Virus genome (UHGV): UHGV-0177145
Origin: a virus
Direction: 5' to 3' (one strand)
DNA: 15,982 nucleotides
A program made the translations under genes and the position numbers. Numbering within the stretch: the first letter of the stretch is position 1; each line of letters begins with the position of its first letter. This document shows positions 6,695 to 13,160 of this stretch, piece by piece. The notes under the pieces are model-generated. The model had not been told where the DNA came from, ran no database searches, and saw only the letters and a program-made list of their open reading frames with translations.

Positions 6695-7062
6695 AGTGGC
6701 TAGAGGAAGCTTTTAAAAATAATATTGGTGCAATTGTAGTTGGTATTTTTAGTGTTATTGGGATGTATACCACCATGCAAGTCTCGGATGGTAAGCAAGA
6801 AGTGTCTATCACAACAAAGTTACAGCAGTTAGATAATTATTCCAAAAGTAATTATTCAGCTATTCGTGATTTACAGTCTGATATGAGGCTGCTTCAGCTA
6901 GGGATGGAGAACCAGAAAGTCCAGTTAGAGAATGTTAAGGGTGAGAACGCAAAACTTACTAAGACTCTTGATAAATTCTCTGATAGTGTGAACAATCTGG
7001 CTCAATCAGTATCAGCCCTCCAAGCTATTACTGAAAAGAACACAAAGAATACTGAAAAGTAA
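6691..7062 (+). CDS. Membrane-anchored coiled-coil protein (hypothetical, 123 aa)
   Basis: AGGGGGAG ribosome-binding site. One predicted N-terminal TM helix (IGAIVVGIFSVIGMYTTM) followed by a heptad-like Q/L/N/K-rich region; topology resembles an i-spanin or antiholin, unproven. Confidence 0.5.
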   Translation: MKWLEEAFKNNIGAIVVGIFSVIGMYTTMQVSDGKQEVSITTKLQQLDNYSKSNYSAIRDLQSDMRLLQLGMENQKVQLENVKGENAKLTKTLDKFSDSVNNLAQSVSALQAITEKNTKNTEK

Positions 7063-7067
7063 AGTTT

Positions 7068-7100
7068 AAGGCTCCTTTTTACGGGAGCCTTTTTTGTTTT
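7068..7100. terminator. Rho-independent terminator at the convergence of the two gene blocks
   Basis: AAGGCTCC (7068-7075), 8-nt loop, GGAGCCTT (7084-7091), then TTTTTGTTTT. Lies 5 nt after the plus-strand stop (7060-7062) and overlaps the minus-strand stop codon (7099-7101) in its T-tract. The T-run is clear only for the plus strand. Confidence 0.7.
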
Positions 7101-7998
7101 ATTTACCTACTGACAAAGGTGCTTCAATCTTTCCTGCATGTTGGTAATTGTTAATACCACCGATAAAGTCACTTGCAGTGAGGTGTTTTAAGTCACTTAA
7201 AGTGTTAAGTGGGATACCAATCTCAAAAGTTGGTGCATGGAACTCTTCATTGTTCATCAGTTCATAAACCTGCTTCATATGATTCTGATAAATCTGAGTA
7301 TCTCCAAAGACACCTATCAAGTACCGTGGAGTGTATCCAGTCATCTTACAAAGAACTTCCAGAATAAAACCGTAAGATGCAATATTAAATGGAAGTCCTA
7401 AAAAGGTGTCTACAGAACGCTGATACCATTGTAAGTCAACTTCACCCTCGTTAGTGATATAAACCTGAAACAGAACATGACAAGGTGCTAGAGCCATTGA
7501 GTTTGCTGCAATATCTGCTGCATTCCAAGCATTAATAAGCATGTAACGGTCTGTGATATCACCCTTCATCTTCGCTACTAAGGTCTCTAGTTGGTCTACA
7601 ACACAACCGTTATGACCTTCAAAGTTTCTCCACTGAACCCCATAAATCCTTCCACCTGCATCCTCTAACCAATCTTGTTCAGAAGAGTAATTAGAGCTTA
7701 ACCAGCGTTTAAAATCATCTGACCAGATAGTCCAACGTTCTCCGTCATTCTCACCCCAAGTACGGTAACGGAGTTCACCCAGCTTATTCTCACCATTCAG
7801 GAACCATAAAGCTTCCCCAATAACTTGCCGTGTAAACACCTGTTTAGATGTTAAGAGTGGGAAACCAGTACGCATATCAAAACGAAATTGTGGTGGAGCA
7901 AATGCAGAGATAACATCTCCAGTCCGTGTAGTACGCAGTTCACCAACGGATAAAACATGGTTCAGAATATTTTTGTAACTCAAATCAGCTTGTGACAT
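7099..7998 (-). CDS. thyA: Thymidylate synthase (ThyA family)
   Basis: Motifs FPLLTSKQ, EALWFLNG, YGVQWR, catalytic MALAPCH, QRSVDTFLGLPFNIASY, GDTQIYQNHM. Overall collinear with E. coli ThyA as I recall it. Immediately downstream of a DHFR gene (frd-td-like order). Confidence 0.9.
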   Translation of the reverse strand: MSQADLSYKNILNHVLSVGELRTTRTGDVISAFAPPQFRFDMRTGFPLLTSKQVFTRQVIGEALWFLNGENKLGELRYRTWGENDGERWTIWSDDFKRWLSSNYSSEQDWLEDAGGRIYGVQWRNFEGHNGCVVDQLETLVAKMKGDITDRYMLINAWNAADIAANSMALAPCHVLFQVYITNEGEVDLQWYQRSVDTFLGLPFNIASYGFILEVLCKMTGYTPRYLIGVFGDTQIYQNHMKQVYELMNNEEFHAPTFEIGIPLNTLSDLKHLTASDFIGGINNYQHAGKIEAPLSVGK

Positions 7999-7999
7999 A

Positions 8000-8545
8000 T
8001 CAAAAGTGTCCTTTTACTTGTGGAACATAAATCTCAAAGGTTGCTTTACCATCATCGGAGGGTCTTGACTGCACCTTTGTAAATACACGGTTATCATACA
8101 GCTTCTCAAAGAAGTTTTCAAAAGGTAAATACACAGTAGTCTCTTCAGTAACTTTATGGAAAACTGTATGGAAAACTACACCAGCATACGGTAAAGCATT
8201 GACAAGGACACCTGCACCACCAATTACAAAGACATCTTCATCAATAGAGCTATCAAGATACTTCAAAAATGCTCCAAATGACTCTTTACTGGCTTTAGCA
8301 TACATTACATCATCTTTGCCAAAATCTATGCCTAAATATGGTACAGAATTTGTTAAGATGAGGTTTGCACGTTCTGGTAAAGGTTTACTCCCCAGAGTCT
8401 TGAAAGTTTCATTACCCATGACTACTAAGTTATTTTTAGTGAGTCTCTTAAACTCTTGCATGTCCTGTTTATGTCGAGGCCACGGCATACCAGTTGGAGT
8501 ACCAAACTCCCCATTTTCACCACTTGCAAAGATTAGTTTAATCAT
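8000..8545 (-). CDS. folA: Dihydrofolate reductase
   Basis: MIKLIFA...GMPW...VVMGNETFKTLG..PLPER.NLILT and a VIGGAG-type glycine motif. ATG overlaps the upstream stop (ATGA). Confidence 0.88.
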   Translation of the reverse strand: MIKLIFASGENGEFGTPTGMPWPRHKQDMQEFKRLTKNNLVVMGNETFKTLGSKPLPERANLILTNSVPYLGIDFGKDDVMYAKASKESFGAFLKYLDSSIDEDVFVIGGAGVLVNALPYAGVVFHTVFHKVTEETTVYLPFENFFEKLYDNRVFTKVQSRPSDDGKATFEIYVPQVKGHF

Positions 8546-8802
8546 TTTATAAACCCTTTCTTAATGAACCAGTTGATAATATTCTTCACAGCTTTATTGC
8601 TATGGTAGATTAAGTGTGGTGTAGGTTGGTATGAACCATAAGCCCAGAATGATAGATGCTCACCACAACCCACACATGTAGTACTCTCTTCAGCTATATG
8701 ACCATTAACAATCATATGAACTTCACCTTGCAAGTCTGTACACCCACAATGTGGACAACGGATAGGTGTTCCATCAGACTCATAGCAGTGTTCAATTTTC
8801 AT
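8542..8802 (-). CDS. Small zinc-ribbon protein (hypothetical, 86 aa)
   Basis: Two CxxC pairs (CPHC ... CVGC) about 24 residues apart. GAGGT ribosome-binding site. Confidence 0.6.
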   Translation of the reverse strand: MKIEHCYESDGTPIRCPHCGCTDLQGEVHMIVNGHIAEESTTCVGCGEHLSFWAYGSYQPTPHLIYHSNKAVKNIINWFIKKGFIK

Positions 8803-9318
8803 TTATTTAACCTCAAAAACTGGTTCAAGAACCAATATAAAGTCTACACAGTCATCTTCTTCATCCAGAATACCATCAAAGTTCTTAGGAACAAAGTCGA
8901 AGAGGCTCATAGAGTAGCGGTCAGAAGTAATCCTGATAGCTCCTCCGATATTCTCTACAGTTAATATTGTACGGCTTTCTGTTACCTCACTAAGAAGATT
9001 ACTTACAAAGTCATCTAAGAAGTGCTTCATCAGTGACTTAAAGCCTTTAGGGTAGTCTGTACCAGAGTATGTTTCAATCTGAGGTACAAGCTTAACATTT
9101 ATACTAGTCTTTGCTAAGAACGTGCTAGAGAACATACTATCAGGTAACTTACAAACAGTCTTTCCAGTACCTTCATGCTCAATCTCAACAAAACCAGCTT
9201 CATCGCCACATGTAACTATTTTAAAAGATGCTTCATTCTCATACTGTGAAGCCATAAACTTTTTAAGCATGACTTTAAGGAAGTCTGCATGAGCATCTTG
9301 TAAGTAGATATCAATCAT
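8803..9318 (-). CDS. Hypothetical protein (171 aa)
   Basis: ORF with AGGTGA ribosome-binding site, packed in the operon; no recognisable motif. Confidence 0.55.
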   Translation of the reverse strand: MIDIYLQDAHADFLKVMLKKFMASQYENEASFKIVTCGDEAGFVEIEHEGTGKTVCKLPDSMFSSTFLAKTSINVKLVPQIETYSGTDYPKGFKSLMKHFLDDFVSNLLSEVTESRTILTVENIGGAIRITSDRYSMSLFDFVPKNFDGILDEEDDCVDFILVLEPVFEVK

Positions 9319-9331
9319 AGTTAATCACCTA

Positions 9332-9691
9332 TTATGGGAACAGACACTTGATGTCATCATTTTTGAAAACAAAACTTGTGTAATTGTGACCATCAACATC
9401 CAACCAAACAGCCTGAACATCTACACCATCAAGATTATGGTAAAGCTCTTTGATGAAGTGGTCTTTCACAACCTGACTGCTAGTTGTTTCCAGCTTAATG
9501 TTTGAGATTGCTGAACCTACAGCCATATAACCCATGACGCGTTTCTTCTCAGTATGCTTAATCTTACCATCTTTGTAAGCCATAATGAGGTTGGAGAGAA
9601 TCTTTACACCATAATACTTTTCAAGGTGAGTAGGTGCACCATAAAAGCCTAATGCGAAGTTTTCAGAGTGGATAATGTTTTCACGTTTCAT
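9332..9691 (-). CDS. Hypothetical protein (119 aa)
   Basis: ORF in the operon; weak ribosome-binding site; no recognisable motif. Confidence 0.5.
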   Translation of the reverse strand: MKRENIIHSENFALGFYGAPTHLEKYYGVKILSNLIMAYKDGKIKHTEKKRVMGYMAVGSAISNIKLETTSSQVVKDHFIKELYHNLDGVDVQAVWLDVDGHNYTSFVFKNDDIKCLFP

Positions 9692-9692
9692 A

Positions 9693-9992
9693 TTAATCTG
9701 CCAGCCTTAAATTAAAATTAACACCAAATTTTTCGCATACTTCCAACATAAACTCAAGAGAGACATTACCAGTGAGATTGATTATGTTGGATACACGAGC
9801 CTGAGAGATGCCACAAATTTTAGCAACTTGCTCTTGAGAAAGACCTCTGGATTTAATCTCTCTCTTAAAACGATGTGCAACGAAGTCTCTCATTTCGTCT
9901 ACATCCATTGGACAAATATAACTCTCCATTTCAGCCTCTCTGTCAGCCTCCCAATCATCTTGTGGAGCATAAGGGTCAAAAACCTCATTCAT
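9693..9992 (-). CDS. XRE-family helix-turn-helix DNA-binding protein
   Basis: C-terminal LSQEQVAKICGISQARVSNII is a classic XRE HTH. Track ORF starts at a TTG (10022); the ATG at 9990-9992 has an upstream GGAAGAAGAAAG purine tract and overlaps the upstream stop (ATGAATGA). Confidence 0.7.
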   Translation of the reverse strand: MNEVFDPYAPQDDWEADREAEMESYICPMDVDEMRDFVAHRFKREIKSRGLSQEQVAKICGISQARVSNIINLTGNVSLEFMLEVCEKFGVNFNLRLAD

Positions 9993-10197
9993 CTTTCTTC
10001 TTCCGTTTGCGTGAAGTGTCAATCAATGAATCTATGTTTGTAGCTCTAACCTTTTCACGTTCATCGTTAAGATAATCATCAAGAGCCTTTTCAATCTGTG
10101 AATCATCTTGACAGATAACTGTAAAGACTGTAAAGCCGTCTGTGTCATCAATTATCTTACCATAACCGCTTCTGGGATGTAACTTTTTAAGAGCCAT
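9985..10197 (-). CDS. Hypothetical small protein with lysine-rich C-terminus (70 aa)
   Basis: ORF ending SRKRKKKDE, translationally coupled to the HTH gene. Confidence 0.45.
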   Translation of the reverse strand: MALKKLHPRSGYGKIIDDTDGFTVFTVICQDDSQIEKALDDYLNDEREKVRATNIDSLIDTSRKRKKKDE

Positions 10198-10198
10198 A

Positions 10199-10582
10199 TC
10201 AAATACCTGTGCAGCTTCTGTTTTCTAAGAAATACTCAACACCATACATAGCTTTTTGCATCAAATCTTCTTTAAACTGAATACGATGATTGAGCATAGC
10301 CTGTGCATCAATATCATCATGGTGCTTCTCTTTAATATTTGCAGATTGCAGGAAATACTCTGCAAGAACGCGATACTGATAGTCAGTTACCTTATCAGTC
10401 ATCTCTGTTAAAGACTCTTCAGAGATTGGTTTAAGTAACTCACCATTAGCCAAAGCAACACCTTTAACAATCTGACAAGTGTCTTCTGGAACACCTGATA
10501 AGTCCACATTTGGAAGTTCTGTTGCATTGACTGGTAAATTCATTGCCATAATCATTGCAGCGGCTAATAAAATCTTTTTCAT
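10199..10582 (-). CDS. Secreted or periplasmic protein with Sec-type signal peptide (127 aa)
   Basis: MKKILLAAAMIMAMNLPVNA/TELP: positively charged n-region, hydrophobic core, AxA-like cleavage site. GAGG ribosome-binding site 7 nt upstream. Confidence 0.6.
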   Translation of the reverse strand: MKKILLAAAMIMAMNLPVNATELPNVDLSGVPEDTCQIVKGVALANGELLKPISEESLTEMTDKVTDYQYRVLAEYFLQSANIKEKHHDDIDAQAMLNHRIQFKEDLMQKAMYGVEYFLENRSCTGI

Positions 10583-10626
10583 AATGACCTCAAAGTTATA
10601 TTAAATTTTGTATTACGTTGAGTATA

Positions 10627-10674
10627 AAAATAAGCTATAACACCTGACTTGTCAATAGATTTTATAGCTTATTT
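10627..10674 (-). promoter_or_regulatory. Perfect 13-bp inverted repeat bracketing a putative proximal promoter
   Basis: AAATAAGCTATAA (10628-10640) / TTATAGCTTATTT (10662-10674), 21-nt spacer. On the minus strand the spacer holds TTGACA (10650-10655), 17 nt upstream of TATTTT (10627-10632). Confidence 0.3.
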
Positions 10675-10828
10675 GGCAGATTTTTTATAAGGCTACTGCC
10701 ATCCTTCCATACCAAACCACACCCTGCCAAACCAGAGCCTACTAGACCATACCGAACCAAACATCACTTAAAAACCCTTTTAAAAGACTCTTAAGTGATG
10801 TTGGTGAGTACCTGTTGGTTTATGCTGC

Positions 10829-10858
10829 TCAGTATACTCACCAAATTTTCTATGTCAA
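10829..10858 (-). promoter_or_regulatory. Strong sigma70-like promoter just downstream of the ligase stop codon
   Basis: Minus strand: TTGACA (10853-10858), 16-nt spacer, TATACT (10831-10836). A 10-bp inverted repeat TTGGTGAGTA (10801-10810) / TACTCACCAA (10835-10844) overlaps the -10 and the predicted start site. Confidence 0.45.
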
Positions 10859-10864
10859 CAACTT

Positions 10865-11968
10865 TTATTCGTAGTCTCGAATAACTAACCCAACAGGGAA
10901 CTGTAAAGACCCCTTACGAGTCATCTTCTGGAACTGTACCGTTAAAGGTTTCCCGATAAACTCTTCAGGGTGTTCAGCAAGATACTGTTTCTTCTCATGA
11001 GTAGTCTTCCATGAGACATCTACAAATACGTTAGGAAGAGTCTCTACAACGAACTTACCATGACCCCGCTTATCAGTCTTTACACCAGTCACTTTAAACT
11101 CTTCAGTGTGCATCTTCTTGTGCTTAATCAAGAAGTATGAACGGTGACAACACTCATAGAAGGAGTCTTCAGAGATTGAACGGTACATTGCACCTTCAAA
11201 CTTAGCTTCAACCCACTTATCATGAGCTTCATCAAACTCTTCCCAAGAATTTACACGACGAGACTTAACAGGGACAACTTTACAGCCATCTCTAAAGTCA
11301 TTCAATGGTGAAGTCTCAATGATATCTCTACGCTCAGGCCACGTCTTAGTGCTGTCACAGATATCATACCAGTAAAACTTGAGTAGGTGTCTGTCAGGAT
11401 TGTCTTCATTTTTAATCATGGAGACGATATCTTCTAAGTCCCACCCATGAGCATAAATCTCTCCATCAAATTCATCAACATCTTTGTGGAGCCTTAACAT
11501 TGCCATAATGTCAGGTATTAGTTCAGTAGGGATTTTGTAAACAGTATTCTCACGAGAATATGCTGTAAATACACTGCCAATACTCAAGTGCCTTGAAATT
11601 CTACAACGAACACCATCAAGTTTCGGTTGAGCATCAGCAGGGAACTTCAGGTACTTTGCATGGCTAACCTTTGCAGCATCATGAGCAAGCTGTACACCAA
11701 CTTTCTCAGTATTCTGTGCAGACTCTTTTGTGTAAGCATAACCTTTACGGTCAACTTGCTTTTTATACTTTGCAGCAACTTCAAAGAGAGCTTGCTGTTC
11801 AGCGTTACGCTCATTCTTTTTACCGATGTTTTTAGGTTCTGCTGTATACTCTTCAAACATCATCTTGCCATTTTCTTTACCGTAGGTTGTAATAACTTTG
11901 TCACCTACAGCGACGCATGACCAGACGTTAAAAGAGCCATCTTTATTTTGTTTGTACAGTGTTGTCAT
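10865..11968 (-). CDS. lig: ATP-dependent DNA ligase
   Basis: KLDGVR adenylation motif (KxDG, motif I); size (367 aa) in the range of T7-type phage ligases. Confidence 0.88.
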   Translation of the reverse strand: MTTLYKQNKDGSFNVWSCVAVGDKVITTYGKENGKMMFEEYTAEPKNIGKKNERNAEQQALFEVAAKYKKQVDRKGYAYTKESAQNTEKVGVQLAHDAAKVSHAKYLKFPADAQPKLDGVRCRISRHLSIGSVFTAYSRENTVYKIPTELIPDIMAMLRLHKDVDEFDGEIYAHGWDLEDIVSMIKNEDNPDRHLLKFYWYDICDSTKTWPERRDIIETSPLNDFRDGCKVVPVKSRRVNSWEEFDEAHDKWVEAKFEGAMYRSISEDSFYECCHRSYFLIKHKKMHTEEFKVTGVKTDKRGHGKFVVETLPNVFVDVSWKTTHEKKQYLAEHPEEFIGKPLTVQFQKMTRKGSLQFPVGLVIRDYE

Positions 11969-12656: not shown

Positions 12657-13160
12657 TCAACTTAGTTTTGCAAACTCTCCGTGGAGTTTTATAGCAGCTT
12701 CACAGTAAGCTTTATGGGCTTCTTCAGGTGTGTCAAATAAACCAAGTGATGTCCTTTTACCTCTGCATGTTATAGCTGCCCTCCACTTATTGCAGTCTTT
12801 AAAGTAATATACACCCTTGTAACCTGATTTGTTAGTTGTCTGCTTTACTCTATTTTGAGCATTTCCGTATTTATCAGTCTCCCTAAGATTAGAAATGTGA
12901 TTATTACTTCTGTTACCATCAATGTGGTCTATCATCTTAGTGGGTTTGTAACCATGTTCGAACCACCAAACGAGGTGATGAATTTTTATTACGACATCTT
13001 TGAATTTAAGTACTTTGTAACCGTAAGCATCAGCACCTCCTGCAATCTGCCCAGCTTTAGCTTGTCTATTCCTGTCATACTTGTTGTAGAAGACCCCTTT
13101 GTCGGGGTCGTAAATAAAATTATCCTTGTAATCTTGAAGTGTTAGTGTACGGCGTACCAT
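12657..13160 (-). CDS. HNH homing endonuclease with AP2-type DNA-binding domain
   Basis: HNH core HHLVWWFEHGY...IDHIDGNRSNNHISNL plus AP2-like SGYKGVYYFKDCNKWRAAITCRGKRTSLGLFDTPEEAHKAY. Start overlaps the last 19 nt of the polymerase gene. Confidence 0.8.
   Translation of the reverse strand: MVRRTLTLQDYKDNFIYDPDKGVFYNKYDRNRQAKAGQIAGGADAYGYKVLKFKDVVIKIHHLVWWFEHGYKPTKMIDHIDGNRSNNHISNLRETDKYGNAQNRVKQTTNKSGYKGVYYFKDCNKWRAAITCRGKRTSLGLFDTPEEAHKAYCEAAIKLHGEFAKLS

What the first reader, a model, noticed from the sequence alone, without database searches (positions are those of the whole stretch)
8542..9691. Cluster of unassignable small proteins between DHFR and the HTH regulator
Three tightly packed genes (86-aa zinc ribbon with CPHC...CVGC; 171 aa; 119 aa) have no motif I can place. 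Small early proteins in this context are often host-takeover or anti-defence factors, but nothing in the sequence shows which.
Basis: inference. Interest (0 to 1): 0.35.

Follow-up and report, generated by a model that had tools for sequence, protein, structure and literature searches.

The report
Three uncharacterised Felix-O1-type phage genes
The three small genes are real, conserved genes of Felix-O1-like phages whose functions are still unknown; published knockout data on a near-identical phage suggest one helps only in certain host strains, one matters in every strain tested, and one is dispensable, so they are not a single takeover or anti-defence module.

Summary
Three tightly packed minus-strand genes (86, 171 and 119 aa) lie between the DHFR gene and an HTH regulator, and all are under purifying selection (dN/dS 0.12, 0.14, 0.03).

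The window comes from a Felixounavirus, about 96% identical to Salmonella phage ph2-2 and E. coli phages JH2 and Bas63. None of the three proteins has a confident match in Pfam, NCBIfam, PADLOC or PDB. Foldseek found nothing for the two that were modelled. They are PHROG families 2993, 4422 and 4116, all of unknown function.

Published screens on orthologues separate the three:
- **Zinc ribbon (Bas63 gene 32, 97% identical).** Its knockout costs fitness in MG1655, BW25113 and S17-1 but is near neutral in DH10B. This fits a host-specific or counter-defence role. Its "Lar" label is sub-threshold.
- **119-aa protein.** It is the most constrained gene of the operon, and its knockout is costly in all four hosts. 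It has a confident orphan fold. This looks like a core accessory factor, not anti-defence.
- **171-aa protein.** It is acidic (pI 4.5), confined to three of the Ounavirinae genera, and near neutral in every host tested.

The cluster is not a functional module, and the finding is ordinary.

A more interesting by-product lies 0.9 kb upstream: an orphan VIPR guide RNA (vrRNA) with no vipr or vap gene.

The parts
8542..8802 (-). 86-aa four-Cys zinc-ribbon protein (phrog_2993). Core signature: CPxCG ... CxxCG ... (Y/F)WAYGSYxP. Orthologue of Bas63 gene 32 and SUSP1 agp031.
   Evidence: ORF. PHROG match E 2.9e-40. 97% identical to bas63_0032. W53, G56 and P60 are invariant and A54 and Y58 nearly invariant across Ounavirinae, Krischvirus, Nonagvirus, Plaisancevirus, Autographivirales and Okubovirus homologues. 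Matches to Lar and ECs_2282 are sub-threshold only. Host-dependent knockout fitness.
8803..9318 (-). 171-aa acidic protein (phrog_4422), found only in Felixounavirus, Mooglevirus and Suspvirus. Orthologue of Bas63 gene 33 and SUSP1 agp032.
   Evidence: ORF. PHROG match E 6.5e-89. pI 4.54, net charge -13, with the acidity conserved in distant orthologues. Only Ounavirinae homologues found. AF2 pLDDT 77.5, pTM 0.66. No PDB fold match: best E 0.03, TM 0.2. Knockout near neutral.
9332..9691 (-). 119-aa strongly conserved alpha/beta protein (phrog_4116), present in Felixounavirus, Mooglevirus, Suspvirus and Kolesnikvirus plus an unclassified member, always inside the replication/nucleotide module. 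Orthologue of Bas63 gene 34 and SUSP1 agp034.
   Evidence: ORF. PHROG match E 1.3e-70. dN/dS 0.026. AF2 pLDDT 91, pTM 0.85. No PDB fold match. In BFVD, only uncharacterised phage proteins match. Only 5 true cluster representatives among 1.84 billion proteins. Invariant polar residues: N5, Y17, T21, E24, R51, S60, S63, N64, K66, D113. Knockout costly in four hosts.
9693..9992 (-). HTH_3 (Cro/CI-type) regulator. It forms the upstream boundary and sits in the same operon. The annotated ATG start gives 99 aa; the mechanical ORF extends to a TTG at 10022.
   Evidence: Pfam PF01381 E 5e-11. Annotation in JH2 and Bas63.
8000..8545 (-). Dihydrofolate reductase. It forms the downstream boundary, and its start overlaps the zinc-ribbon stop (ATGA).
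   Evidence: Pfam PF00186 E 6.5e-22. Sequence.
10627..10655 (-). Sigma-70-type promoter-like site, TTGACA-17-TATTTT. It probably heads the operon 127aa-70aa-HTH-119aa-171aa-Zn-DHFR-ThyA.
   Evidence: Consensus scan, 10 of 12 matches. Every base is identical in the window, SUSP1, Sf17, Bas63, JH2 and an IMG/VR Felixounavirus. Function is inferred, not shown.

Best explanation
The three ORFs are genuine but unrelated accessory genes of an Ounavirinae (Felix-O1-like) phage. They are co-transcribed with an HTH regulator, DHFR and thymidylate synthase from a host-RNA-polymerase-type promoter. They do not form one functional module.

1. **86-aa zinc ribbon.** I read it as a host-genotype-dependent fitness factor. 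It most likely uses its zinc ribbon and the conserved WAYGSYxP tail to bind and neutralise a host-encoded nuclease or other restriction factor that is present in MG1655, BW25113 and S17-1 but missing in DH10B. The authors who measured this suggested Type IV restriction (McrA, McrBC, Mrr). It is Lar-like in size and metal-site layout but is not a demonstrable member of the Lar family.
2. **119-aa protein.** I read it as a conserved, fitness-relevant helper of phage DNA, nucleotide or gene-expression metabolism. It has an orphan alpha/beta fold. A cluster of invariant polar residues lies around a G-S-A-x-S-N helix N-terminus, together with R51 and K66, and looks like a small-ligand or phosphate-binding site.
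3. **171-aa protein.** It is a dispensable, fast-evolving, strongly acidic lineage-specific protein. The best guess is a decoy or inhibitor of a host protein that matters only in natural hosts.

**Shown:** gene reality, conservation patterns, absence of known homologues, and the published knockout and knockdown phenotypes of the orthologues.

**Inferred:** every molecular mechanism, the host target, early timing, and the ligand site.
For: **Identity and operon.** The window is 95-96% identical in nucleotides to Felixounavirus genomes. Gene order is the same in JH2, Bas63 and ph2-2. The promoter upstream of the 127-aa gene is invariant.

**Independence of the three genes.**
- The families have different ranges. 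The 171-aa family is in three genera, the 119-aa family also occurs in Kolesnikvirus (Erwinia phages), and the zinc ribbon also occurs in T4-like, 9g-like, T7-like and SPO1-like phages.
- An unrelated 166-aa gene sits between the 119-aa and 171-aa genes in Suspvirus, Mooglevirus and IME338.

**Zinc ribbon.**
- PhageMaP knockout of Bas63 gene 32 (97% identical) gives betaML of about -1.2 in MG1655, -1.0 in BW25113, -0.8 in S17-1 and -0.14 in DH10B. The authors note this host dependence.
- Knockdown of the SUSP1 orthologue in the DH10B derivative NEB10beta scored 'Not Fit', which agrees.
- It has the lowest amino-acid identity in the operon (91%; dN/dS 0.118).
- Similarity to Lar and ECs_2282 is weak but recurs in 4 and 7 of 10 family members respectively.

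**119 aa.**
- Knockout fitness is -0.9 to -1.3 in all four hosts (same calls).
- dN/dS 0.026.
- AF2 model pLDDT 91.
- Invariant polar residues.
- It is always found next to ligase, CCA-adding-enzyme, HTH or nucleotide-metabolism genes.

**171 aa.**
- Knockout fitness is about 0 to +0.3 in four hosts and in two defence-panel sheets.
- pI 4.5, conserved in distant orthologues.
- dN/dS 0.136.
Against: - No biochemical or structural datum exists for any of the three proteins.
- DH10B differs from the other strains in many loci (mcrA, mrr-hsdRMS-mcrBC, recA1, endA1, relA1 and others; genotype from general knowledge). The host factor is therefore unidentified and need not be a defence system.
- The Bas63 data come from a preprint and from pooled barcoded knockouts. 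Genes 34 and 35 are 1 nt apart and have similar scores, so a cis or polar effect between them cannot be excluded.
- SUSP1 knockdown scored agp034 and the HTH as 'Not Fit'. This conflicts with the Bas63 result. Those authors report false negatives.
- The zinc-ribbon matches to Lar are far below the curated cut-offs (18.6 bits against 39.6; 13.7 against 28.6), and similar generic zinc-ribbon families score alike.
- The 171-aa model is only moderately confident, and acidity alone is weak evidence for mimicry.
- I could not examine model coordinates, so the clustering of the conserved 119-aa residues in space is not verified.
Confidence: 0.5

Rival explanations
1. The zinc-ribbon protein is a true Lar-family restriction-alleviation protein that blocks Type I (EcoKI-like) restriction, as the 'restriction alleviation protein lar*' label in the Bas63 data set implies.
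For: - It matches TIGR03655 (E 0.0018) and PF14354 (E 0.077) over the two CxxC knuckles, and 4 of 10 and 3 of 10 family members do the same.
- It has the same small size and the same CPxCG...CxxC layout as Rac RalR/Lar.
- The Bas63 authors annotated gene 32 this way.
Against: - All scores are less than half the curated cut-offs.
- BLASTP against RalR aligns only 9 residues.
- The C-terminal half differs. This family has WAYGSYxP plus a basic helix, whereas RalR has ...EALERWNKR.
- The fitness cost is equally strong in BW25113, which is hsdR-deficient (one search gives the genotype hsdR514; one search gives the fitness). EcoKI restriction therefore cannot be the target.
- No database source names the protein Lar among the 40 cluster members read.
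Confidence: 0.12
2. All three proteins are early host-takeover or anti-defence factors acting on the host, which is the first reader's reading applied to the whole cluster.
For: - They are small and have no known enzymatic domain.
- A promoter of the host-RNA-polymerase type lies upstream.
- Most of this region is dispensable for SUSP1 in a laboratory strain.
- The zinc ribbon shows host dependence.
- The 171-aa protein is acidic like the known DNA mimics Ocr and Arn (pI; the comparison is from general knowledge).
Against: - The 119-aa gene is costly to lose in every host tested, including DH10B, which is restriction-deficient (genotype from general knowledge), and it evolves as slowly as thyA. 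This pattern is unlike an arms-race gene.
- No PADLOC or anti-defence-like match exists.
- The 171-aa knockout showed no change in the two defence-panel sheets read.
- None of genes 32-34 is among the counters or triggers validated in that study.
Confidence: 0.15
3. The genes belong to phage DNA and nucleotide metabolism. They act as accessory subunits or regulators of the adjacent DHFR/ThyA/ligase/polymerase machinery, and the zinc ribbon is a nucleic-acid-binding factor whose requirement depends on host physiology rather than on a defence system.
For: - They are embedded between polymerase/ligase and DHFR/ThyA, with translational coupling to DHFR.
- Zinc-ribbon homologues lie right after the DNA polymerase in Autographivirales and right before a helicase in an SPO1-like phage.
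- The 119-aa homologue lies next to the ligase or the tRNA nucleotidyltransferase in other genera.
- The 119-aa knockout is costly everywhere.
- One GenBank/UniProt entry calls the 119-aa protein 'nucleoside triphosphate hydrolase'.
Against: - DHFR and ThyA knockouts themselves are nearly neutral, so the phenotypes are not explained through those enzymes.
- No Walker or other NTPase motif and no Pfam, NCBIfam or PDB support for the NTPase label.
- The 171-aa gene is dispensable.
Confidence: 0.23

Closest known systems
Lar / RalR restriction-alleviation protein of the Rac prophage (Pfam PF14354, TIGR03655), and the ECs_2282 family of prophage zinc-binding proteins (NF047912)
   Same: Each is a small protein of a phage or prophage. 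Each has a four-Cys zinc ribbon with a CPxCG first knuckle and a CxxC second knuckle at similar spacing. Weak profile matches cover exactly that region.
   Different: - Scores are well below the curated thresholds.
- The C-terminal half is unrelated (WAYGSYxP plus a basic amphipathic tail, against the Lar ...WNKR helix).
- The Bas63 phenotype persists in an hsdR-deficient host, so the classical Lar target, EcoKI, is not implicated.
Bas63 (JohannRWettstein) genes 32, 33 and 34, and SUSP1 agp031, agp032 and agp034: orthologues screened by PhageMaP and CRISPRi-ART
   Same: The gene order is the same and so are the PHROG families. The zinc ribbon is 97% identical to Bas63 gene 32. SUSP1 identities are 65% (zinc ribbon), 36% (171 aa) and 66% (119 aa).
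   Different: Nothing essential differs. The window is another allele of the same three families. SUSP1 and Mooglevirus carry an extra unrelated gene (phrog_9143) between the 119-aa and 171-aa genes.
Acidic DNA-mimic anti-restriction proteins (T7 Ocr, T4 Arn, ArdA), considered for the 171-aa protein
   Same: Strong net negative charge (-13, pI 4.5), conserved across divergent orthologues. The gene is dispensable in laboratory hosts.
   Different: No sequence or fold similarity to any solved structure. The predicted fold is a mixed beta-rich fold, and no restriction phenotype is known.
VIPR system of phage SUSP1 (Vipr RAMP-like protein, Vap1 and YNNGG-repeat vrRNAs)
   Same: It occupies the same genomic neighbourhood. 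A vrRNA with the SUSP1-type 3' tail lies 0.9 kb upstream of the cluster in the window.
   Different: The three proteins are not Vipr or Vap homologues. They also occur in Ounavirinae genomes that have neither vipr nor repeat arrays.

Membership tests
Lar family restriction alleviation protein (TIGR03655 / PF14354) | Score at or above the curated family cut-off (39.6 bits for TIGR03655; 28.6 bits for PF14354) | tested here: not met
   18.6 bits (E 0.0018) and 13.7 bits (E 0.077) for the window protein. No member of a 10-sequence family alignment had a better E-value than 0.0018 (TIGR03655) or 0.035 (PF14354).
Lar family restriction alleviation protein (TIGR03655 / PF14354) | Four-Cys zinc ribbon, CPxCG ... 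CxxC, in a protein of about 55-65 aa | tested here: met
   C16, C19, C43 and C46 are invariant across the family and align with the RalR cysteines. The protein is longer, at 86 aa.
Lar family restriction alleviation protein (TIGR03655 / PF14354) | Conserved C-terminal helix after the second knuckle (in RalR ...EALERWNKR; that this motif is general to the family is from memory) | tested here: not met
   The window family instead has an invariant W53, G56 and P60 within (Y/F)WAYGSYxP. BLASTP against RalR aligns only 9 residues at the first knuckle.
Lar family restriction alleviation protein (TIGR03655 / PF14354) | Alleviates Type I (EcoKI) restriction | not testable with these tools
   Indirect evidence argues against it. 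The fitness cost of the Bas63 gene 32 knockout is the same in hsdR-deficient BW25113 as in MG1655.
ECs_2282 family putative zinc-binding protein (NF047912) | Score at or above the curated cut-off (37 bits) | tested here: not met
   20.3 bits, E 3.7e-4. 7 of 10 family members match, best E 2.8e-5.
VIPR system components (Vipr RAMP homologue, Vap1) | Sequence similarity of any window protein to SUSP1 Vipr (agp039) or Vap1 (agp038). That assignment is my own inference from locus layout and a G-rich loop. | tested here: not met
   tblastn of agp039 and agp038 against the window finds nothing at E below 1e-3. The closest complete genome, ph2-2, has no hit better than E 0.88.
P-loop / nucleoside triphosphate hydrolase (the label attached to the 119-aa protein in one UniProt entry and in the Bas63 table) | Recognisable NTPase domain or Walker motifs | tested here: not met
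   No Pfam or NCBIfam hit at E up to 1 other than noise. No PDB sequence or fold match. No GxxxxGK[ST] in the sequence. The label traces to a single source name.
DNA-mimic anti-restriction proteins (Ocr, Arn, ArdA), for the 171-aa protein | Strongly acidic surface together with a fold or function mimicking DNA | tested here: inconclusive
   Acidity is met (pI 4.54, net -13; conserved). There is no fold match to any solved mimic. Charge geometry and function could not be tested.

The most novel reading that the evidence does not exclude
The zinc-ribbon family (phrog_2993, CPxCG...CxxCG...WAYGSYxP) is spread across Felix-O1-like, RB49-like, 9g-like, T7-like, phiPMW-like and SPO1-like phages. It could be a new, broadly distributed counter-defence family that disarms a chromosomal factor present in E. 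coli K-12 but absent from DH10B.

The neighbouring 119-aa protein could be a previously unrecognised fold that acts as a near-essential replication or expression factor specific to Ounavirinae.
Probability: 0.3. Interest if true: 0.55.

Novelty: already known. Interest (0 to 1): 0.27.

Why it matters
Felix-O1-like phages are used for Salmonella and E. coli typing, biocontrol and therapy, yet most of their early-region genes have no assigned function.

This work shows that the cluster is three separate problems. That tells experimenters where to look:
- **Zinc ribbon.** It is a tractable candidate for a host-specific counter-defence. The phenotype already exists, and only the host locus has to be mapped among the DH10B lesions.
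- **119-aa protein.** It is a small orphan fold with a fitness phenotype, which makes it a good structural and biochemical target.
- **171-aa protein.** It probably needs natural hosts before any phenotype appears.

None of this changes current understanding. It mainly corrects two loose database labels ('Lar' and 'NTP hydrolase').

Tried and rejected
- **Family libraries.** Pfam, NCBIfam, PADLOC and PHROGs scans gave only sub-threshold zinc-ribbon matches and PHROGs of unknown function.
- **PDB sequence searches.** Profiles of all three families returned only noise or C2H2 zinc-finger artefacts.
- **Structure.** AF2 models of the 171-aa and 119-aa proteins followed by Foldseek against PDB gave no match (TM 0.38 or less). 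Foldseek against BFVD for the 119-aa model found the Erwinia-phage orthologue, a fragment of a close relative, and two uncharacterised phage proteins at TM 0.64-0.70.
- **Homologue searches.** Word-indexed searches, single and profile, found only Ounavirinae. An exhaustive HMM search of 1.84 billion representatives with the 119-aa profile found 5 true hits plus one spurious eukaryotic repeat protein.
- **IMG/VR scan for the 171-aa family.** It found only Ounavirinae-sized genomes.
- **Paralogy.** I tested whether the extra 166-aa gene of Suspvirus and Mooglevirus is a paralogue of the 171-aa gene. It is not.
- **RalR and YdaE.** Direct comparison with these Rac-prophage proteins showed no meaningful alignment. 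A tblastn with RalR gave too few phage homologues to build a Lar profile.
- **VIPR membership.** I tested whether the three genes belong to the neighbouring VIPR locus and rejected the idea.
- **Literature.** Two other phage-essentiality preprints, a stringent-response paper and the Bas63 cryo-EM paper contain nothing on these genes. I read only two of about ten stored sheets of the Bas63 defence-panel supplement.
- **Rfam.** The whole window has no hit.
Full report
**What the window is.** A megablast of 7000-11000 finds 278 phage records. 214 of them cover at least 80% of the query at 90-96% identity. Nearly all are Felixounavirus (Ounavirinae) phages of Escherichia, Salmonella and Shigella. 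The closest complete genome, Salmonella phage ph2-2, matches about two-thirds of the window at 93-96% identity; the tail-fibre region matches less well (83-91%) or not at all. On the plus strand the window holds baseplate and tail-fibre genes and two small genes that Bas63 and related records annotate as holin-like. On the minus strand it holds a long replication and nucleotide-metabolism block: DNA polymerase, a homing endonuclease, small ORFs, ligase, an intergenic region, then genes of 127 aa and 70 aa, the HTH regulator, 119 aa, 171 aa, the 86-aa zinc ribbon, DHFR and ThyA.

**Checking the observation.** The zinc-ribbon stop overlaps the DHFR start (ATGA). The 171-aa stop codon is followed directly by the zinc-ribbon ATG, with a GAGG upstream. 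13 nt containing GGTGA precede the 171-aa ATG. 1 nt separates the HTH stop from the 119-aa ATG. The 86-aa protein has CPHC at 16-19 and CVGC at 43-46.

I extracted 23-24 distinct Felixounavirus alleles of every gene in the operon from IMG/VR and GenBank loci and computed Nei-Gojobori dN/dS:

| Gene | dN/dS | Mean aa identity |
|---|---|---|
| Zinc ribbon (86 aa) | 0.118 | 91% |
| 171 aa | 0.136 | 95% |
| 119 aa | 0.026 | 98.6% |
| thyA | 0.033 | |
| DHFR | 0.083 | |
| HTH | 0.054 | |

All three are therefore real, selected protein-coding genes. The 119-aa gene is the most constrained gene in the operon, and the other two are the least constrained.

**Searches for known relatives.**
- Pfam, NCBIfam and PADLOC give nothing above their cut-offs. 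PHROGs places the proteins in phrog_2993, phrog_4422 and phrog_4116, all 'unknown function'.
- Profiles of each family find no solved structure by sequence.
- The 171-aa protein was modelled from an 18-sequence alignment: pLDDT 77.5, pTM 0.66. The fold is beta-rich with a few helices. Foldseek against PDB gives nothing better than E 0.03 and TM 0.2. The weak top hits are OB-like TOBE, ModE and EF-P domains, which I do not regard as meaningful.
- The 119-aa protein was modelled from 14 sequences and is confident: pLDDT 91, pTM 0.85. Its topology is beta-beta-alpha-beta-alpha-alpha-beta-beta-alpha. It has no PDB match.
- In BFVD the 119-aa model hits its Erwinia-phage orthologue (TM 0.85), a fragment of a close relative (79% identical), and two uncharacterised phage proteins at TM 0.70 and 0.64 with 14% identity.
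- An exhaustive HMM search with the 119-aa profile over 1.84 billion cluster representatives found five true members. The sixth hit is a 2,092-aa leucine-rich-repeat protein that matched through its repeats and is spurious.
- Source names for cluster members are 'hypothetical protein' or 'phage protein' throughout. One UniProt entry calls the 119-aa protein 'Nucleoside triphosphate hydrolase'. Nothing in my searches supports that label, and the sequence has no Walker A motif.

**Distribution and synteny.**
- The 171-aa family occurs only in Felixounavirus, Mooglevirus and Suspvirus, at 33-42% identity between genera.
- The 119-aa family also occurs in Kolesnikvirus. In Erwinia phage phiEa21-4, gp80 lies immediately upstream of a tRNA nucleotidyltransferase and the ligase. 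The family also occurs in the unclassified Ounavirinae phage LPML1, directly after the ligase.
- The zinc ribbon has the widest range. Recognisable homologues, all sharing an invariant W, G and P in a (Y/F)WAYGSYxP motif after the second CxxC, occur in:
  - RB49-like Krischvirus, near alt;
  - Nonagvirus;
  - Pseudomonas phage phiPMW;
  - Cronosvirus-type Autographivirales, directly after the DNA polymerase;
  - SPO1-like Okubovirus, directly before a helicase.
- In Suspvirus, Mooglevirus and IME338 an unrelated 166-aa gene (phrog_9143) is inserted between the 119-aa and 171-aa genes.
- Three families with three different ranges and a breakable gene order argue against a single functional module.

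**The 'Lar' lead.** The zinc ribbon gives weak hits to the Lar family (TIGR03655, 18.6 bits against a cut-off of 39.6; PF14354, 13.7 against 28.6) and to the prophage ECs_2282 zinc-binding family (20.3 against 37). In a scan of ten diverse family members, 4, 3 and 7 of them respectively repeat these weak hits, and none approaches the cut-offs. TFIIB, Elf1 and other generic zinc-ribbon families score in the same range.

I fetched RalR/Lar from the Rac prophage of MG1655. BLASTP aligns only 9 residues around the first knuckle. In a joint alignment the four cysteines line up, but the C-terminal halves are unrelated. The protein is therefore Lar-like in metal-site layout and size, but family membership is tested and not met.

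**Experimental data on orthologues.** Two published screens cover these genes.

1. *CRISPRi-ART on SUSP1 (PMC11879866).* agp031 (zinc ribbon), agp032 (171 aa), agp034 (119 aa), the HTH, DHFR and ThyA are all 'Not Fit' in NEB10beta, which is a DH10B derivative.
2. *PhageMaP on Bas63 (bioRxiv 10.1101/2024.10.10.617714).* Bas63 is phage JohannRWettstein, MZ501086. Its locus tags bas63_0032, 0033 and 0034 are the three orthologues, and 0032 is 97% identical to the window protein. The paper's gene numbers equal the locus tags: 39 is the ligase, 47 the polymerase, and 79 and 80 the NAD genes.

Supplementary fitness values (betaML, three replicates; clearly dispensable genes score about +1) are below.

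| Gene | S17-1 | MG1655 | BW25113 | DH10B |
|---|---|---|---|---|
| 32 (zinc ribbon) | -0.78/-0.70/-0.82 | -1.24/-1.19/-1.25 | -1.04/-1.01/-1.08 | -0.12/-0.17/-0.14 |
| 33 (171 aa) | about 0 | about 0 | about 0 | +0.16 to +0.31 |
| 34 (119 aa) | -1.00 to -1.16 | -1.19 to -1.34 | -1.06 to -1.27 | -0.87 to -1.02 |
| 35 (HTH) | -1.2 to -1.5 in all hosts | | | |
| DNA polymerase | about -1.3 | about -2.5 | about -2.3 | about -4 |

DHFR and ThyA score roughly -0.8 to +0.4.

The authors note that gene 32 is less essential in DH10B. [quoted passage not shown] In the two defence-panel sheets I could read, genes 32-34 behave as in the controls. None of them is among the validated counters or triggers.

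The SUSP1 'Not Fit' call for the zinc ribbon agrees with the Bas63 DH10B result. The SUSP1 'Not Fit' calls for the 119-aa gene and the HTH do not agree with Bas63. Possible reasons are incomplete knockdown (those authors report false negatives), a genus difference, or a cis effect in the Bas63 knockouts. Genes 34 and 35 are only 1 nt apart.

**Interpretation.**
- *Zinc ribbon.* I read it as a conditional, host-genotype-dependent fitness factor. The host factor is unknown. EcoKI is excluded by the BW25113 result. DH10B lacks mcrA, mcrBC and mrr but also differs at recA, endA, relA and elsewhere (genotype from general knowledge).
- *119-aa protein.* Its extreme conservation, host-independent fitness cost, fixed residence in the replication/nucleotide module across four genera, and set of invariant polar residues point to a core accessory function with a ligand-binding or catalytic pocket. 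The invariant residues are N5, Y17, T21, E24, R51, S60, S63, N64, K66 and D113, including a G-S-A-x-S-N segment that the model places at a helix N-terminus. The nature of that function is inference only.
- *171-aa protein.* It is acidic (pI 4.54, net -13, conserved in 35-41%-identical orthologues), the fastest-evolving by dN/dS, and dispensable. A decoy or inhibitor role in natural hosts is the best guess, with low confidence.

**Transcription context.** The 282-nt ligase-to-127-aa intergenic region carries two near-consensus sigma-70-type promoters on the minus strand. They are TTGACA-16-TATACT (10858-10831) and TTGACA-17-TATTTT (10655-10627). The second is identical base for base in six phages from three genera. 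It probably drives the eight-gene operon that includes the finding. The only terminator-like hairpin lies after thyA, at 7068-7091, and its T-run is on the plus strand. Early or middle timing is therefore plausible but not measured.

**An unexpected by-product.** While looking for SUSP1 literature I found a 2026 preprint describing VIPR systems (10.64898/2026.04.26.720920). A VIPR system has a RAMP-like Vipr protein, an accessory Vap protein, and vrRNAs of about 100 nt. Each vrRNA consists of 9-16 YNNGG repeats plus an invariant 3' tail. SUSP1 is the type example.

- Between the two promoters the window carries eleven in-phase pentamers, nine of them YNNGG: TTTGG TTCGG TATGG TCTAG TAGGC TCTGG TTTGG CAGGG TGTGG TTTGG TATGG. 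The tail GGAAGGATGGCAGTAGCCTTATAAAAAATCTGCC... follows. In the alignment the whole stretch from the tail onward is identical to the last SUSP1 repeat array but for one base.
- Most GG (and many following Y) columns are invariant, while the NN columns vary between phages.
- The presumed Vipr is SUSP1 agp039 (195 aa, G-rich loop CGVGDWRPRFGRF) and the presumed Vap1 is agp038. This assignment is my inference from the locus layout. Neither has a homologue in the window, JH2, Bas63 or IME338, nor anywhere in the complete ph2-2 genome, which still keeps one array and tail at the same site.
- Of 23 IMG/VR Felixounavirus loci, 14 carry vipr and vap at 97-99% identity to SUSP1. Nine lack them within the sequence fetched, and seven of those nine still have YNNGG arrays.
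- About 118 Ounavirinae records in GenBank carry vipr.
- The three genes of the finding are present regardless, including in loci with no array at all. They are not part of VIPR.
- Rfam has no family for this RNA.

**Verdict.** They are already-catalogued conserved hypothetical families of Felix-O1-like phages, and phenotype data exist for near-identical orthologues. No new system is revealed. The interest of the finding itself is modest. The orphan vrRNA next door deserves its own follow-up.

Noticed in passing
window 10655-10775, minus strand (repeats about 10775-10707, tail about 10708-10660); flanking promoters at 10858-10831 and 10655-10627: This is an orphan VIPR guide RNA (vrRNA). It has eleven in-phase pentamers, nine of them YNNGG, followed by a 3' tail. 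From the tail onward the sequence is identical, but for one base, to the last vrRNA region of phage SUSP1. Most GG(Y) columns are invariant and the NN columns vary among relatives.

No vipr or vap gene is in the window. Neither gene occurs anywhere in the complete genome of the closest relative, ph2-2. About 60% of sampled Felixounavirus loci do carry vipr and vap at this exact site. A guide RNA retained without its effector might be a remnant, or it might be used in trans during co-infection.
   Followed up: partly
window about 10762-10800, minus strand: A strong hairpin (CATCACTTAAGAGTCTTTTAAAAGGGTTTTTAAGTGATG) lies between the first promoter and the YNNGG repeats. The 176-nt region folds at -52.8 kcal/mol, z = -3.2 against shuffles. 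It could be a processing signal, an attenuator or an operator for the vrRNA transcript.
   Followed up: partly
window 9693-10022, minus strand: The mechanical ORF for the HTH regulator starts at a TTG (109 aa). Annotated orthologues in JH2, Bas63 and SUSP1 start at the internal ATG (99 aa, MNEVFD...), which overlaps the end of the upstream 70-aa gene. The shorter form is probably the real one.
   Followed up: no
window 10199-10582, minus strand: The 127-aa protein is the first gene after the conserved promoter. It has an N-terminal signal-peptide-like hydrophobic segment (MKKILLAAAMIMAMNLPVNA) and two conserved cysteines. It is probably exported, and its function is unknown (phrog_4332).
   Followed up: no
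window 12657-13160, minus strand, between the DNA polymerase and the small ORFs upstream of the ligase: This is a 167-aa homing-endonuclease-like gene, annotated as 'HNH endonuclease motif protein' or 'putative homing endonuclease' in relatives. Its start overlaps the end of the polymerase gene. It is a mobile element inside the replication module.
   Followed up: no
L002 2845-3345 (SUSP1 agp033), L004 1990-2493 (Sf17 gp102), L006 1987-2490 (IME338): An extra gene of about 166 aa (phrog_9143) is inserted between the 119-aa and 171-aa genes in Suspvirus, Mooglevirus and IME338. It is absent from the window and unrelated to its neighbours. This marks the spot as a hotspot for gene insertion.
   Followed up: partly
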